The notes under the pieces were generated by a model. The model worked only from the letters and a program-made list of their open reading frames with translations. It was not told the origin of the DNA and searched no databases. From the NCBI GenBank assembly GCA_965204745.1, contig OZ242010.1:2560001-2624000 (forward strand): DNA of 64,000 nucleotides, read 5' to 3'. Below are positions 39,169 to 43,424 of the stretch, piece by piece. A program made the position numbers and the translations under genes. Position 1 is the stretch's first letter. The number at the start of each line of letters is the position of its first letter. This DNA comes from Candidatus Latescibacterota bacterium (lineage in GTDB: Bacteria; Latescibacterota; UBA2968).

Positions 39169-40881
39169 ATGTTAGATACGTTTTCAAGCGACATAACCGC
39201 CCATGCGAATAAGTTGCGCTGCGCCGCGGTCTTTGCGTTTATGGATCTCGACTATATCCAAACAGTGGTCAAACGCGCGGTTCTTTCACACAAGAAGGCG
39301 GCGAAAGAAGCGCGAGAGATGTTCGAGTCCGCAGTGAACAAACCTGGGTTGGTGAAAGTGTCCCGGTTTCCCAATCAGCCCTCAAAGGCGCCGCCGCCCT
39401 TTCTCGTAGAGCCGGTTTTGAAAGCCGTGATGCGGTCGGACAAGTTGGCGGGCGCGATTCTGAAAATCTGGGCAGAGTCCCACGAGGCACTCAACGAAGT
39501 GGTCGTGAAGCATCTGGGCAATTTGGCCATGCCGGCCGAGTATCCGGATTTTTCAGAGTTTCGATTTCGAAGTGCGTGGTTTAGCGATGCGTGGACGCGC
39601 GAGCGGGATAGTATTCTCGAGCAACACAGCGAGTTTAACAAAGACGATGTGGCCCTGATGCTGTGCTATGTGTCGGGCAAAATCCCCGGGCCTCGGGAAA
39701 GCGCGAAAAACGACGCGCTGTCTCGGTGTCTCAAATACATGCGGGCACTGCCGGCCAATGCGCCGGAATGGGAACGGGGGATTTCGGATTTTGTTGCAGA
39801 ACTCGAAGCCATCCGGAAGGTGAAATCAACGCAGCGCAGTCAAGCATCTGGTATTGACGTTGCGATTGGCGAGATCAAGGATGTGTTTTCGGGAACCTTG
39901 ACCTTTTTTCAGCGGGATGCCACGTCTTGGTCCGTGGCGCATCTGGATCCGGACGTGGACTTGGCTGACGCGCTGAAAGAGATAGAGAATTTGCAGTCGT
40001 TGCTGACCGAGTATCAACCCATTGCCGATATGGCTGCGATTTTGACCGAAGAGCGGGTGAGACGGCAGAAGCGGGTGGGGTTGGAGAATCGCATTTTGCC
40101 GGTTATGGATCGCATAGACGAACTGATGTGCGGGGATCCCGAGTCCGGGGAGGCCCTGCTGGCAGAATTGCGAGAGAGAAAAGAACAACCGGCAGCGGAT
40201 GAGAAGCGCGCTGATCAGCCGGATGACGACCCAGTTCCTGAACAGCCGGAGGAGAGCCGCAGGTTTTCGGATGAGGATTACGAGTCGTTGCAATCGGAAA
40301 ACCAACACCTCGGTCGCGAGGTCAAGTCGTTGCACGACAAGTTGCGCGAGGTTCAAAATGAGATGGAGAGTTGGCGCGTGGCCTATATTGAGGCGGCGAG
40401 CAAGGCGCCGGCAAGTGCAGACGAAGAAGAAACCCTGCCCATTGAGAACGTGCATGACGCTGTCGAACTCGCCAAAGAAAAGTACGGAGACGCGCTTTTG
40501 TTCCAACTCAATGCGAAGTCGCGGGTCGAAGACAATCCGTTCAGGCATCCCAAAGCCGTGTGGGACGCGCTGACCTGGCTGGCGACCACGTATTACGAGT
40601 ACCGCAAGGGCGAGCGCGAGTTGCCGAACATCGACCAGTCCGTGCGCGAAGCCTGTAGGTGGTGGTACAGAGGCCACCAGAGCAATATGACGATGAACAA
40701 GTACAAAGACTGGTACACCACCAAAGTCAATGGGCAGATTTGCTGGCTGCATACGCACATCGGCACGGGGCGCAACAAAAATGCGCGCTTCACCATTCGG
40801 ATCGGCTTTGACTGGGACAAGGACAGCGACCGCGTGATCGTGGGCTTCATCGGTCAACACCAACAGACGGATGCGACATGA
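39169..40881 (+). CDS. Hypothetical protein, helical/coiled-coil with putative C-terminal RelE-like nuclease domain
   Basis: AAGGAG RBS, 570-aa ORF, coiled coil near aa 370-410, C-terminal HIGTG..FTIRIGFDWD..VIVGFIGQH; function inferred. Confidence 0.7.
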   Translation: MLDTFSSDITAHANKLRCAAVFAFMDLDYIQTVVKRAVLSHKKAAKEAREMFESAVNKPGLVKVSRFPNQPSKAPPPFLVEPVLKAVMRSDKLAGAILKIWAESHEALNEVVVKHLGNLAMPAEYPDFSEFRFRSAWFSDAWTRERDSILEQHSEFNKDDVALMLCYVSGKIPGPRESAKNDALSRCLKYMRALPANAPEWERGISDFVAELEAIRKVKSTQRSQASGIDVAIGEIKDVFSGTLTFFQRDATSWSVAHLDPDVDLADALKEIENLQSLLTEYQPIADMAAILTEERVRRQKRVGLENRILPVMDRIDELMCGDPESGEALLAELRERKEQPAADEKRADQPDDDPVPEQPEESRRFSDEDYESLQSENQHLGREVKSLHDKLREVQNEMESWRVAYIEAASKAPASADEEETLPIENVHDAVELAKEKYGDALLFQLNAKSRVEDNPFRHPKAVWDALTWLATTYYEYRKGERELPNIDQSVREACRWWYRGHQSNMTMNKYKDWYTTKVNGQICWLHTHIGTGRNKNARFTIRIGFDWDKDSDRVIVGFIGQHQQTDAT

Positions 40882-40893
40882 GGAAGGAAGAGG

Positions 40894-40960
40894 GGAGAGG
40901 CAAGAGGCAAGACGTAAGAGGCAAGAGGCAAGAGGCAAGAGGTAAGAGGCAAGAGGTAAG
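40894..40960 (+). repeat. Heptamer array (GAGGCAA/GAGGTAA)n, insertion site of IS110
   Basis: Direct reading; inverted related units (GTCTTGCCTCT) lie beyond the other IS end at 42257-42340 in a 43-bp tandem duplication. Confidence 0.9.
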
Positions 40961-40976
40961 ATACTCTCTTAAAAGG

Positions 40977-41984
40977 TCAAGGGGTTTTCGGGGTGATTCG
41001 ATAGAATTTTTCGCCCTCAAAATCTTGGTCATGGCGCAACATGCCCCAGATCGAATGGAGCAACTTTCGCATCACCGCAACGATAGCCTGCAAAGGTTTC
41101 TTGCCGCGGGCGATGAGTTGGTCATAGAAGGCTTTGACATGGCCTTCGTGTCTGATGGCCACCCAGGCAGGCATATAGAGGGCATGGCGGAGGTACTTAT
41201 TCCCGGTTTTCGAGATGCGTCTTTGTGGATTGGCGGTTCCGGATTGTTTGGGTTTGGGATCCAGGCCTGCATGTGCGACCCACTGGGGCGGTTGCATCTC
41301 CTCTGGCAAAAGGGTCAACTCGGCCAAGAGCCGCAAGGCACTCGTTTGCGCGATGCCAGGCGTCGAGCAGAGGCGTTGGTAGGCACGCTTGAGGGGCTCA
41401 TCGTGCAAAACGAGATCGAGGGCTTGGCTTTCCAAGTATGCAATCCGGCGTTTGAAGTGTCGAATATTCACCTGAATATCGCGTGCGATGAGACGTGTGC
41501 TGCGGATGTGGTAGCTCTGCGCGTGGTTGCGGCTCTGTTCGCGGATGATCTCCTGCTTGAGTTGGTCAATGCGTCTGGTGAGGGCTTGCAGTTGAAGCCG
41601 TTGCTCGCTCGGCGCTTGCCAAGGCACAAAAGGCATGCGCTCGGCATAGTCGAGGATCAACAACGCATCCTTCGCATCCGTCTTCGCCCGTTGCATGCAG
41701 GCTTGGGCGTACTTGCTCATCGCTTTGGGATTGACGACCATGACCTTTGTGTGGCGATGCCGATGCAAGGCCAAGGCCACCCCCAAACTGTAAAGCCCGG
41801 TCGCTTCGAGGCACACAGAGACCATGTGCCCGCCCTTCGTGAGCCACTTCAGCAACCGCTTATGCGCTTGGGGATCATTGGCAAAGGTCGCTTGCATGAC
41901 AGCTTGTCCGGGTCTGGACAGGGCAACGGACAACGTGCGGGCACTGACATCAATGCCGGCAAAAGCGGGGTGAGATTTCGACAT
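40977..41984 (-). CDS. IS110-family DEDD recombinase/transposase
   Basis: CAGGAGG RBS; AGIDVS, CLEATG, KTDAKDA (DEDD), PGIA, AGLDP..QSG (catalytic Ser), ISKTGNKYLR, AVMRKL. Confidence 0.96.
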   Translation of the reverse strand: MSKSHPAFAGIDVSARTLSVALSRPGQAVMQATFANDPQAHKRLLKWLTKGGHMVSVCLEATGLYSLGVALALHRHRHTKVMVVNPKAMSKYAQACMQRAKTDAKDALLILDYAERMPFVPWQAPSEQRLQLQALTRRIDQLKQEIIREQSRNHAQSYHIRSTRLIARDIQVNIRHFKRRIAYLESQALDLVLHDEPLKRAYQRLCSTPGIAQTSALRLLAELTLLPEEMQPPQWVAHAGLDPKPKQSGTANPQRRISKTGNKYLRHALYMPAWVAIRHEGHVKAFYDQLIARGKKPLQAIVAVMRKLLHSIWGMLRHDQDFEGEKFYRITPKTP

Positions 41985-42054
41985 GGGGGCCTCCTGTGAT
42001 GAGGGGGTTGTAAGGGATCTGGTGCGCGCTCGGGGTCGCGTCCCGACCATTGAC

Positions 42055-42235
42055 GCCAAGTCTACCGGTCTTGTATATGCAGCCTCAAGGGGCTTAGATA
42101 CTCTTCGGCATAGACCCGGCGGTCGGGGGGCCTATCTTACCTACAAGGTCATCGCCTTCAAGAGGGGCCGGCCTTCCCCGAGCCGGGCATCAAGATGGCT
42201 TATCTCGATACGAGGGCGCAACTCCTAATTAACCC
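42055..42235 (-). ncRNA. Putative bridge RNA of IS110 (ends approximate)
   Basis: Two internal loops whose strands match the reconstructed target (CCCCTCT at 42161-42167, AGGTAAG at 42136-42142) and donor (AGAGTATCT at 42096-42104, ATACAAG at 42070-42076). Confidence 0.85.
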
Positions 42236-42700
42236 TTACTTCCAAGATACAAGAGGGGTGGCCTTCTCACGTCTTGCCTCTACCTTCTTACCTTTTTAAG
42301 GTGGCCTTCTCACGTCTTGCCTCTACCTTCTCACCTTTTTGGGTGTAGGGGCGTTGCCCCGTGCCTGCCCAAAGGCATGGGCTGACCTGCTGTTGGTCAG
42401 TATGCTTGTTGTTCAGCATCCAAGGAGTAAAAGCGAGAGGCGAGAGGGCCATTACGGTCTTCTCGCCTTTTGCGTACTGAATAAAGTCATTTCAGTTTTT
42501 GAAGGGCTTTTGCACAGGTTTATTTTTTTTGGTCGCGTTGCGTGGGTTGCAGAGTTCAATACCCACTGGGGTAAATGTCGCCATCCATGCTTGCTCGATC
42601 TCAGGATCTTTTGTGGGCCACTTTTCGATAAAAATGACCCACAACGAATTTTGTGGGACATAAATGTCCAACAAAACCCGCGCTGATGTGTAAATCAGCA

Positions 42701-43174
42701 TCAAAACACCTCGTGTCCCTCCACGACATTGACGAGTTCAAAGAACGCCAGAACGTTTGATCTCCGGCCGCTTCCGCGAAAAATTACCCGCAGAACATCT
42801 CCTTTGCACAAGGCGTCCAGAATCCGGCGTGCTGTCTTTGCCGGAATGCCCGCTTCGGCAACAAAGAGCGAACTCGAAAAGACCGGACGCTCAAATTGAA
42901 TGTCGTCGCGGCGTTCGGGCGACGCCATCTCTCGTCCCGCCTCAAATTCCAACACCTCGCCCATCGTGGCTTGCGTGCCTTCAATGCGCGAGGACAGCAC
43001 GGCCTCTCGAGTCGTGAGCGGCGAGCGTAAAACGCCGGGGTTCGGGATGGCAGAAAGCATGCCGTCGTAACGCGCCACCGCCCCGGCCGCCGGGCCGATC
43101 AGTAGAATCAGCACTTGCCAGTCAAGGTTTGCGGGGGGAAACTGCCCCGCGTGGTAATGGATTGCTACCATCAT
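42701..43174 (-). pseudogene. Internally deleted Fic-family gene
   Basis: Fic N-terminus (AVARYDG..EAVLSSRIEGTQAT) joined directly to a C-terminal wHTH; HPFxDGNGR catalytic core absent. Confidence 0.75.
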
Positions 43175-43424
43175 CGCGCCCTTCGGACAATGCGAACTGA
43201 CCGATGAGTTATTCTGCAAATCGAGTTATCTTTCAAAGTTCGGGTTTCATCATACTCAGGGTTTGCCATTTCTTCAAGGACTTTTTTGATTTTCGCCCCA
43301 GCTTGATCGCCATGCATGTTTTGGCATTGCAACGCATTTGGGTTTGTCTTATTATTTTGACGACTTCGCCTCCCGTCCGCATTAGGGGTAGATATTTGCA
43401 CGATACAACTGTGGAGTTGAGAAA

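What the first reader, a model, noticed from the sequence alone, without database searches (positions are those of the whole stretch)
40959..42253. IS110 with a fully readable bridge RNA programmed toward the host heptamer repeat
Seen (minus strand): reconstructed target CACCCCT-CT-TACCT and donor AGAGTAT-CT-TGTAT. The left end holds GGCC/CCCCTCT-tg-[AAGG cgatga CCTT]-gt-AGGTAAG-ata-GGCC (target loop, 42170-42129), then GTCTATGCCG-a-AGAGTATCT-a-[AGCC ccttga GGCT]-gcat-ATACAAG-a-CCGGTAGAC (donor loop, 42115-42060). Left guides equal the left halves and right guides are reverse complements of the right halves. Circularisation builds TTGACC-N18-TATCTT across the junction. Established: this is the IS621 bridge-RNA architecture (its donor, from memory, is ACAGTATCTTGTAT). 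New here: an intact divergent ortholog whose target resembles the (CCTCTTR)n intergenic arrays, a safe-harbour strategy and a candidate genome-editing tool.
Basis: partly seen in the sequence, partly recalled or inferred. Interest (0 to 1): 0.85.

Follow-up and report, generated by a model that had tools for sequence, protein, structure and literature searches.

The report
Bridge-RNA insertion sequence targeting heptamer repeats
This is an intact IS110-type jumping gene whose own guide RNA is written to match one particular junction inside the host's seven-base repeat arrays, and its 52 copies sit almost exactly where that guide predicts; it is a clean natural example of a mechanism that is already known.

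Summary
Window 40959-42253 (minus strand) is a 1295-bp IS110-group element. It has a 335-aa DEDD/Ser recombinase, a 269-nt left end, an 18-nt right end and a CT core at both junctions.

The left end carries two stem-loops with internal loops. The first loop reads CCCCTCT and AGGTAAG, which is the target CCCCT-CT-TACCT. The second reads AGAGTATCT and ATACAAG, which is the element's own joined ends.

The genome holds 52 full-length copies, 51 with an intact reading frame.
- Of the 45 copies carrying this target loop, 20 sit at the perfect 12-mer. That is 20 of the 25 such sites in the genome.
- Another 17 sit at the G:U-wobble site, which has 82 sites.
- None sits at the commonest array junction, which has 241 sites.

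Diverged copies and fragments carry changed guides, and their flanks have changed to match. Relatives from several phyla share the scaffold (13 compensatory pairs), the donor ends and a split promoter across the joined ends.

Expression and circle formation were not shown. Interest is moderate.

The parts
40959..42253 (-). Whole IS110-group element, 1295 bp counting the CT core at both junctions
   Evidence: 52 full-length copies share these exact ends and have unrelated flanks.
40977..41984 (-). Recombinase gene: 335 aa, ATG at 41984, TGA stop at 40979-40977
   Evidence: PF01548 at 1.2e-24 and PF02371 at 4.8e-20. Full-length match to ISCro4 (9t56, 7.6e-40) and IS621 (8wt6, 5.8e-36). D12, D103 and S248 are invariant, and E60 and D106 at least 90% conserved, among 18 homologues.
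42042..42243 (-). Predicted bridge RNA. The extent is inferred, running from just after the -10 box to the 3' arm of the closing stem.
   Evidence: Fold. Consensus structure and pair counts on 35 left ends. Both ends of the RNA are inferred, not measured.
42187..42211 (-). 5' stem-loop (10-bp stem, loop AAGCC)
   Evidence: Minimum-energy and centroid folds. It aligns poorly across phyla and was not scored for covariation.
42129..42173 (-). Target-binding loop: GGCC stem, internal loop, AAGG/CCTT hairpin
   Evidence: The stems have compensatory changes in relatives: 2 of 4 pairs in each helix.
42160..42167 (-). Left target guide CCCCTCT plus T, equal to the top-strand left half, the core and the first base of the right half
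   Evidence: It changes together with the flank in variant copies.
42136..42142 (-). Right target guide AGGTAAG, the reverse complement of CT+TACCT
   Evidence: Variant copies have AGGTGAG, AAGTAAG or ACGGGAG, with matching flanks.
42134..42135 (-). Handshake guide AU of the target loop, complementary to donor positions 6-7 (AT)
   Evidence: 'AT' is found at this place in 86 of the 98 left-end/flank combinations examined. The definition comes from passages of PMC11208158.
42060..42115 (-). Donor-binding loop: outer stem, internal loop, AGCC/GGCT hairpin
   Evidence: The outer helix has 8 pairs with changes on both sides.
42096..42104 (-). Left donor guide AGAGTATCT, equal to the last 9 nt of the element
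42070..42076 (-). Right donor guide ATACAAG, the reverse complement of the first 7 nt (CTTGTAT)
42068..42069 (-). Handshake guide AC of the donor loop. The A is complementary to target position 7 (T).
   Evidence: In this genome A faces T in all 10 distinct left ends. In relatives G faces C in 27, G faces T in 13 and C faces C in 2.
42244..42249 (-). -10-like hexamer TATCTT in the left end
   Evidence: The same place is used in 27 of 32 relatives.
40975..40980 (-). -35-like hexamer TTGACC in the right end, overlapping the stop codon
   Evidence: Spacing across the joined ends is 18 nt here and 17 nt in most relatives.
42254..42260 (-). Left half of the target (CACCCCT) at this copy
40885..40958 (-). 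Right half of the target (TACCT) and the heptamer array that follows. The script's 11 units begin 3 nt further left, so they include the last base of the left flank and the CT core. The array ends next to the stop of the 570-aa ORF.

Best explanation
The element is an intact IS110-group insertion sequence that was active recently. Its left end encodes a bridge RNA of the IS621 type.

The inferred cycle follows the published family model:
- The element leaves its site as a circle, which joins the right and left ends at a single CT.
- This join places TTGACC 18 nt upstream of TATCTT. Transcription from that promoter yields an RNA of roughly 190 nt.
- The recombinase binds the RNA.
- The donor loop pairs with the joined ends (AGAGTAT-CT-TGTAT).
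- The target loop pairs with CCCCT-CT-TACCT. This is the junction of a TCTCCCC unit with a TCTTACC unit in the host's TCTYNSS heptamer arrays. TGCCT is tolerated in the right half through a U:G wobble.
- Strand exchange at CT then inserts the element.

Shown here: the anatomy, the site specificity, the covariation between guides and targets, and the conservation of scaffold, ends and split promoter.

Inferred: that the RNA is made, that circles form, and the chemistry of the reaction.
For: (1) Protein.
- Both IS110 domains are present.
- The protein aligns over its full length to the IS621 and ISCro4 recombinases.
- The DEDD residues and the serine are conserved.

(2) Copies.
- There are 52 full-length copies: 30 at 100% identity, 37 at 99% or more, 8 at 96.1%, 1 at 95.8%, 1 at 94.8% and 5 at about 89%.
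- 51 of the 52 have an intact reading frame.
- All IS110-domain matches in the genome lie in this one element family: 57 at E<=0.001, of which 56 exceed the curated cut-off and 1 is a 28.1-bit fragment below it.

(3) Sites.
- In the 37 main copies the flanks read C34 C34 C37 C37 T37, then CT, then T35, A21/G14, C37, C34, T36.
- With the elements removed in silico, the 45 copies carrying this guide occupy 20 of 25 perfect sites and 17 of 82 wobble sites.
- They also occupy 4 of 87 TACCT-CT-TACCT sites and 2 of 10 CCCCT-CT-CCCGT sites.
- They occupy 0 of 241 TGCCT-CT-TGCCT sites, although that is the commonest of the 3092 array junctions.

(4) Natural reprogramming.
- The copy at 1297034 has guides TCCCTCT-C and AGGTGAG and sits at TCCCT-CT-CACCT.
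- The 89% subfamily has CGCCTCT (TGCCTCT in one copy) and AAGTAAG. Four of its five copies sit at sites that fit by Watson-Crick or G:T pairing.
- One fragment has the guide TTCCCC and the flank TTCCCC.

(5) Relatives.
- The ends CTTGTAT and GTATCT are conserved from Latescibacterota to Proteobacteria.
- In 31 of 55 element/flank combinations, at least 12 of 14 guide positions match. Mismatched pairings reach this in 93 of 2632 cases. Many of the 55 come from a single genome, so they are not independent.
- On 35 left ends the stated structure has 89.8% of cells paired, against 21-54% when partners are slid. Thirteen pairs change on both sides, and 0 of 500 shuffles reach the observed covariation score.
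- The split promoter lies at the same place in 27 of 32 relatives.

(6) Handshake positions fit the published rule in 50 of 52 distinct left ends, counting G:T as a fit.

(7) No promoter-like site precedes the RNA in the linear copy. This fits dependence on the junction promoter.
Against: - No RNA data exist for this organism.
- Some copies do not fit their own guide. Eight of the 45 main-guide copies sit at sites with one or two non-wobble mismatches. The copy at 602780 carries guides that do not fit its own flank.
- The copy at 1297034 has a left donor guide with one mismatch to its own right end.
- Position 7 is T in both target and donor, so the first handshake base of each loop can also pair with its own (cognate) DNA. 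In IS621 a donor-loop change that allows this sharply reduced recombination (passages).
- The single-sequence fold is only modestly better than shuffles (z = -2.26).
- Perfect identity among 30 copies could be partly inflated by assembly polishing of a multi-copy repeat.
Confidence: 0.88

Rival explanations
1. The element is a true IS110, but target choice is made by the protein or by a DNA structure of the arrays. On this view the complementarity of the left end to the target is a by-product.
For: Every site lies in one repeat family, so a structural or protein-read feature of the arrays could contribute. An ISPpu10 preprint reports a target-encoded stem-loop as a second determinant of specificity (abstract only). 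About 11 of the 45 main sites share a GGTGGCC-like leader upstream (read from the list).
Against: Guides and flanks change together in at least four guide variants within this genome, and also in relatives whose targets are not arrays at all. The commonest array junctions are never used.
Confidence: 0.04
2. The family is a set of dead relics, or its uniformity is an assembly artefact. It once used a bridge RNA but no longer moves.
For: No circle or empty-site evidence was obtained. The genome appears to be a metagenome-derived single-contig assembly, judging by its nearest relatives. Polishing can homogenise repeats in such assemblies.
Against: 51 of 52 reading frames are intact and 34 left ends are identical, while every copy has a distinct flank. 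Perfect sites are 80% occupied, which implies a recent expansion limited by the supply of sites. Diverged subfamilies and fragments coexist with the uniform copies, so the assembly does not flatten variation in general.
Confidence: 0.06
3. The copies that do not fit their own guide were placed by a bridge RNA from another copy acting in trans, or by half-matched recombination, rather than by sloppy recognition.
For: - The copy at 602780 sits at TCCCT-CT-CACCT, the site specified by the guides of the copy at 1297034.
- The copies at 1927368 and 5150716 sit at CCCCT-CT-CCCGT. This fits the right guide ACGGGAG kept in fragments at 2972659 and 845540.
- Action in trans is shown for IS621 (passages).
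- Half-match insertion is reported for IS621 (abstract).
Against: Gene conversion between copies after insertion would give the same picture. The left end of 602780 looks like a mosaic of two subfamilies. The numbers are small.
Confidence: 0.4

Closest known systems
IS621 of Escherichia coli (bridge RNA; Durrant et al. 2024, PMC11208160; Hiraizumi et al. 2024, PMC11208158; passages read)
   Same: - DEDD/Ser recombinase of similar size, aligned over its full length at E = 5.8e-36.
- Bridge RNA in a long left end, with a short right end.
- The order is 5' stem-loop, then target loop, then donor loop.
- The left guides equal the top strand and the right guides are reverse complements.
- The CT core is present in all four guides.
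- The handshake guide of the target loop is AU in both elements.
- A promoter is split across the joined ends.
- The target is a multi-copy intergenic repeat.
   Different: - The protein is a distant relative: 127.6 bits, with identity not computed.
- The right target guide is 7 nt here and 4 nt in IS621.
- The target is a junction inside tandem heptamer arrays rather than a REP element.
- Target and donor share T at position 7.
- Promoter spacing is 18 nt.
- There are 52 copies in one genome.
- The RNA sequences were not compared directly, because IS621 DNA could not be fetched.
ISCro4 recombinase (PDB 9t56)
   Same: It is the best solved-structure match: E = 7.6e-40, with residues 7-326 aligned.
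   Different: Only the protein was compared. Nothing about its RNA or target was seen here, and the host assignment is recalled, not checked.
Related elements in Latescibacterota metagenome genomes (loci L031-L055, L074)
   Same: - The recombinase is 76-84% identical.
- The scaffold, donor ends and split promoter are the same.
- In one genome (L037-L055) the targets are again heptamer arrays.
   Different: Their guides are written differently. L037-L055 use CGCCTCT with a right guide that fits CT+CCC, at sites such as CGCCT-CT-CCCGT. L031-L036 use AGAAAAG at non-array sites ending CT-TTTCT.
ISPpu10 and ISPpu9 of Pseudomonas putida (IS110 elements in repeated intergenic sequences)
   Same: Insertion is confined to many copies of one intergenic repeat (abstracts).
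   Different: Those targets are palindromic or stem-loop repeats, and a target stem-loop acts as a second determinant. No common stem-loop was seen at the sites here.
CazIS110-1 of Caloranaerobacter azorensis (bioRxiv 10.1101/2025.10.25.684509; passages read)
   Same: It is a bridge-RNA IS110 proposed to move by copy-out, which keeps the donor copy. That would fit the accumulation of 52 copies here. The preprint also describes tandem copies and an RNA holding only the target loop.
   Different: Nothing here tests the pathway. The tandem pair and the 190-bp mini-element seen in this genome are only reminiscent of those features.

Membership tests
IS110 family (DEDD transposase) | N-terminal DEDD/RuvC-like domain plus C-terminal Tnp domain | tested here: met
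   PF01548 at 87.3 bits (cut-off 29) and PF02371 at 72.2 bits (cut-off 21.3).
IS110 family (DEDD transposase) | Catalytic D, E, D, D and Ser residues (IS621 D11, E60, D102, D105, S241) | tested here: met
   The alignment to 8wt6 places D12, E60, D103, D106 and S248 on these residues. The residue list comes from passages of PMC11208158. D12, D103 and S248 are invariant, and E60 and D106 at least 90% conserved, in 18 homologues.
IS110 family (DEDD transposase) | No long terminal inverted repeats, and a 2-bp core shared by element and target instead of a longer duplication | tested here: met
   CT lies at both junctions in 52 of 52 copies.
IS110 group (as against the IS1111 group) | Long left end, short right end, RNA in the left end | tested here: met
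   269 nt lie before the ATG and 18 nt after the stop. The criterion comes from passages of PMC11208160.
IS110 group (as against the IS1111 group) | Short 2-3-bp subterminal inverted repeat flanking the programmable donor | tested here: met
   AAG precedes AGAGTAT-CT-TGTAT, and CTT follows it, across the joined ends (read).
Bridge RNA (IS621 type) | [quoted passage not shown] | tested here: met
   89.8% of cells are paired, 13 pairs change on both sides, and slid controls give 21-54%. The 5' stem-loop is seen only in the single-sequence fold.
Bridge RNA (IS621 type) | First loop: the 5' side equals the left target plus core, and the 3' side is the reverse complement of core plus right target | tested here: met
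   with covariation.
Bridge RNA (IS621 type) | Second loop: the same relation to the element's joined ends | tested here: met
   A 9-nt guide and a 7-nt guide match the ends. The pair arose in 0 of 200,000 shuffles.
Bridge RNA (IS621 type) | Handshake guides pair with the non-cognate DNA (target loop with donor 6-7, donor loop with target 7) | tested here: met
   AU faces donor AT, and A faces target T. 50 of 52 distinct left ends fit when G:T is counted.
Bridge RNA (IS621 type) | Handshake guides do not pair with their own (cognate) DNA | tested here: not met
   Target and donor both have T at position 7, so the first handshake base of each loop can pair with either. The second base distinguishes the two in the target loop only. 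Whether this matters for this orthologue is unknown.
Bridge RNA (IS621 type) | Sigma-70-like promoter rebuilt across the joined ends | tested here: met
   This holds at sequence level only: TTGACC-N18-TATCTT. The same place is used in 27 of 32 relatives, and 23 of those have TTGAC.
Bridge RNA (IS621 type) | The RNA is made, binds the recombinase and is needed for recombination | not testable with these tools
   No RNA run is listed.
Bridge RNA (IS621 type) | Match to a curated or published covariance model of the IS621 RNA | not testable with these tools
   Rfam 15 gave only chance-level hits, with E of 1 or more and all far below gathering scores. The authors' model is not available here.

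The most novel reading that the evidence does not exclude
One genome holds a natural reprogramming series of a single bridge-RNA element.
- At least five different target loops are present, counting fragments. Each matches a different junction type of the host's heptamer arrays.
- The perfect sites of the dominant variant are close to saturation (20 of 25).
- Some copies appear to have been placed by another copy's RNA.

On this reading the arrays are an expandable landing pad. Point changes in the guides open new sets of sites, and the family tolerates a handshake configuration that blocks IS621.
Probability: 0.45. Interest if true: 0.55.

Novelty: new member of a known kind. Interest (0 to 1): 0.4.

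Why it matters
The mechanism itself is established. This locus adds an unusually complete natural data set within a single genome:
- dozens of insertions;
- an occupancy gradient running from perfect sites, through wobble sites, to mismatched sites;
- several guide variants, each with flanks that match.

This gives mismatch-tolerance and reprogramming rules for a 7+7-nt target loop without any experiment. It also provides a compact 335-aa orthologue with natural guide variants ready to test.

The data further show that tandem heptamer arrays, and not only palindromic REP elements, can serve as landing sites. Two full-text searches returned no paper that describes this.

Tried and rejected
- Rfam search of 40800-42500 at E up to 10: five matches, all at chance level, and no bridge-RNA family.
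- Sequencing runs: 20 holders in 8 studies (sponge and marine metagenomes, plus coded organisms), all kept as contigs, with no RNA holder listed.
- Four runs were laid on 40400-42800. The contigs break at the repeats. The few 'skip' joints near the ends have short sides and extra letters between them, and read like junctions of other copies. No circle junction and no clean empty site was seen. This says nothing about expression or activity.
- No orthologous empty site. In 20 related genomes the left-flank gene is about 70-76% identical at the DNA level, but synteny across the element is not kept. In G001 no array follows the gene.
- Fetching IS621 itself for a direct comparison of RNA sequences failed. 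The plasmid protein search gave only 'IS110 family transposase' labels. The best E. coli plasmid hit is a relative of IS621, not IS621 itself (1.9e-70 to 8wt6). A distant DNA search of E. coli genomes with that gene found plasmid relatives only.
- Idea: the arrays supply a -35 box for chromosomal copies. Only 5 of 52 copies have TTG at the right place, so I rejected it.
- The intergenic claim rests on a crude stop-to-stop ORF map, since no gene caller was available. Eighteen of 52 rebuilt empty sites lie in a stop-free frame of 450 nt or more. The arrays contain no stop codons in any frame, so this count neither supports nor refutes gene disruption.
- No covariance model was built. The pair counts on the MAFFT alignment were judged sufficient. 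One 3-bp helix is misaligned by one column in the proteobacterial rows, which lowers its score.
- Supplements were not opened. The lists of predicted orthologues in Durrant et al. might already include this element or its relatives.
Full report
WHAT IS THERE

On the minus strand of window 40959-42253 lies a 1295-bp element.
- It begins CT-TGTAT and ends AGAGTAT-CT.
- It carries one gene, with ATG at 41984 and stop at 40979-40977, encoding 335 aa.
- The protein has both IS110 domains: PF01548 at 1.2e-24 and PF02371 at 4.8e-20.
- It aligns over its full length with the two bridge recombinases that have solved structures: ISCro4 (9t56, 7.6e-40) and IS621 (8wt6, 5.8e-36).
- The residues aligned with the IS621 catalytic set are D12, E60, D103, D106 and S248. 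D12, D103 and S248 are invariant among 18 homologues of 55-95% identity; E60 and D106 are at least 90% conserved.
- 269 nt precede the gene and 18 nt follow it. This is the layout of the IS110 group rather than the IS1111 group (passages of PMC11208160).

THE TWO LOOPS

The first stem-loop (42173-42129) has CCCCTCT(+T) on its 5' side and AGGTAAG on its 3' side.
- These are the top strand of the left flank plus core, and the reverse complement of the core plus right flank.
- The target is therefore CCCCT-CT-TACCT.

The second stem-loop (42115-42060) has AGAGTATCT and ATACAAG.
- These are the last nine bases of the element, and the reverse complement of its first seven.

In 200,000 shuffles of the left end, the first guide pair arose 12 times and the second never.

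Two bases after each right guide sit where IS621 has its handshake guides (passages of PMC11208158).
- AU in the target loop is complementary to donor positions 6-7.
- The A in the donor loop is complementary to target position 7.

COPIES AND SITES

The window lies in a single-contig genome of 5.48 Mb. BLAST finds 52 full-length copies:
- 30 at 100% identity;
- 37 at 99% or more;
- 8 at 96.1%;
- one each at 95.8% and 94.8%;
- 5 at about 89%;
- plus about 20 fragments.

51 of the 52 keep an intact frame. All 57 IS110-domain matches at E<=0.001 in the genome belong to this family; 56 exceed the curated cut-off and one 28.1-bit fragment falls just below it. CT lies at both junctions of all 52 copies.

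For the 37 main copies the flanks read C34 C34 C37 C37 T37, then CT, then T35, A21/G14/C2, C37, C34, T36.

I removed the elements in silico and counted all sites in the genome. The 45 copies with this guide occupy:
- 20 of 25 CCCCT-CT-TACCT sites;
- 17 of 82 CCCCT-CT-TGCCT sites, where the U of the right guide faces G;
- 4 of 87 TACCT-CT-TACCT sites;
- 2 of 10 CCCCT-CT-CCCGT sites;
- 2 single sites;
- 0 of 241 TGCCT-CT-TGCCT sites, the commonest of the 3092 junctions inside arrays.

Site use therefore follows complementarity to the guide, not the abundance of the repeat.

NATURAL REPROGRAMMING

- The 95.8% copy (1297034) differs in the target loop at three positions. Its guides become TCCCTCT-C and AGGTGAG, and it sits at TCCCT-CT-CACCT.
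- The 89% subfamily has CGCCTCT (one copy has TGCCTCT) and AAGTAAG. Its five sites are CGCCT-CT-TACTT (two copies), CACCT-CT-TACTT, TACCT-CT-TACTT and CGCCT-CT-TACCT. Four of the five fit by Watson-Crick or G:T pairs, and one has an A-C mismatch.
- Fragments add further loops. TTCCCC sits beside a TTCCCC flank, and a loop with right guide ACGGGAG also survives.

Not everything fits.
- The 94.8% copy (602780) carries guides that do not match its own flank. That flank matches the guides of copy 1297034.
- Two main copies sit at CCCCT-CT-CCCGT, which fits the ACGGGAG guide rather than their own.
- Action of another copy's RNA in trans, half-matched recombination (abstract) or later gene conversion could each explain these cases. 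I cannot tell which applies.

RELATIVES

Homologues are numerous: 3553 at E of 0.001 or better in the protein search, with the best 120 at 55-95% identity. Eighty loci were fetched from named genomes. The nearest are Latescibacterota metagenome genomes (76-84% identity), followed by proteobacterial and other lineages (45-64%).
- The end motifs CTTGTAT and GTATCT recur at the expected distances in most of them.
- A 35-sequence alignment of left ends shows an invariant scaffold with variable guide positions.
- On a structure stated in advance from the window's sequence, 89.8% of cells pair, against 21-54% when partners are slid by 1-3 columns.
- Thirteen of the 32 pairs change on both sides, and no shuffle of 500 reaches the observed covariation score. 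RNAalifold on its own found 11 such pairs among 25.
- An alignment-free test found at least 12 of 14 guide positions matching the element's own flanks in 31 of 55 cases. Deliberately mismatched pairings reached this in 93 of 2632 cases. Nineteen of the 55 come from one genome, so the cases are not independent.
- That genome's elements (L037-L055) again sit in heptamer arrays, but at CGCCT-CT-CCCGT-type junctions that match their own guide CGCCTCT.
- The nearest relatives (L031-L036) use AGAAAAG and sit at non-array sites ending CT-TTTCT.
- The donor-loop handshake base tracks target position 7. It is A with T in this genome, and in relatives G with C in 27, G with T in 13 and C with C in 2 distinct left ends.

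PROMOTER

Across the joined ends, TTGACC (overlapping the stop codon) would lie 18 nt upstream of TATCTT.
- The best-scoring hexamer pair lies at the same place in 27 of 32 distinct relatives, mostly with 17-nt spacing. Twenty-three of these have TTGAC.
- The linear copy has no promoter-like site ahead of the RNA.
- This matches the published account that excision rebuilds a promoter driving the RNA (passages). Transcription itself was not observed.

THE TARGET ARRAYS

The genome has 643 arrays of three or more TCTYNSS units, totalling 25.7 kb.
- Against a crude stop-to-stop ORF map, 343 arrays lie outside ORFs and 58 lie well inside one. Random intervals give about 71 and 430.
- 48 of the 52 copies have three or more units around them.
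- At the window's own copy, the right flank is an 11-unit array that ends at the stop of a 570-aa ORF. The left half of the target comes from a GGCCACCCCT boundary next to heptamers in the opposite orientation.

COMPARISON WITH WHAT IS KNOWN

In architecture the element is an IS621-type bridge-RNA element in every sequence-level feature that I could test. It passes the membership tests listed, with one exception. Target and donor share T at position 7, so the first handshake base of each loop can also pair with its own DNA. In IS621 a mutation allowing such pairing in the donor loop strongly reduced recombination. The 52 copies show that this orthologue copes with it.

The differences are of degree:
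- a 7-nt right target guide;
- 18-nt promoter spacing;
- tandem heptamer arrays as the target class;
- a very high copy number.

Targeting of multi-copy intergenic repeats is already described for IS110 elements (reference list and passages; abstracts). Two full-text searches found no paper on IS110 elements in heptamer arrays or in Latescibacterota.

VERDICT

The element is a new member of a known kind. Its value lies in the natural series of insertions and guide variants, and as an additional compact orthologue. It does not reveal a new mechanism. Interest 0.4.

Noticed in passing
whole genome G000: Tandem Repeats Finder lists 1195 arrays of period 7. The commonest canonical units are AACTGAC (199), ACCACTG (142), ACTACTG (113), ACCTCTC (111) and AAGAGGC (83). 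The first unit is one base away from the TAACTGA repeats described in Beggiatoaceae and cyanobacteria (abstract of PMC4679880).
   Followed up: partly
whole genome G000, flanks of the TCTYNSS arrays: The arrays are often followed by a G-rich motif (GAAGGGGGTTGGGCGGGG-like). They are often preceded by GGTGGCC or by arrays of the other heptamer families, so the intergenic regions look like composite repeat modules.
   Followed up: no
window 42257-42340: Two 41-nt direct repeats separated by TT lie just left of the element. Each is made of heptamers in the opposite orientation and ends in GGCCACC. The second one supplies the left half of the target.
   Followed up: no
G000:C1:1121591-1124182: A 96.1% copy and a 100% copy lie head to tail with five bases (TACCT) between their CT cores. 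The younger copy inserted one heptamer upstream of the older one.
   Followed up: partly
G000:C1:2972659-2972850: A mini-element of about 190 bp. Its left end runs as far as the right donor guide and is joined directly to the last bases of the right end. It has its own target loop (CCCCTCT and ACGGGAG) and array flanks.
   Followed up: partly
G000:C1:602780-604074 and 1297034-1298326: Copy 602780 has a mosaic left end and guides that do not fit its flank. Copy 1297034 has a left donor guide with one mismatch to its own right end.
   Followed up: partly
window 42704-43219 (minus strand): A 172-aa ORF has a Fic/DOC N-terminal domain (9e-19) and no other Pfam match. The neighbouring 570-aa ORF (39169-40878) has no Pfam match above cut-off.
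   Followed up: no
window 40400-42800 in run X2: Contigs of the element carry word depths of about 2590-2730, while the flanking contigs carry 99-101. The tool warns that depth is not a copy number.
   Followed up: no
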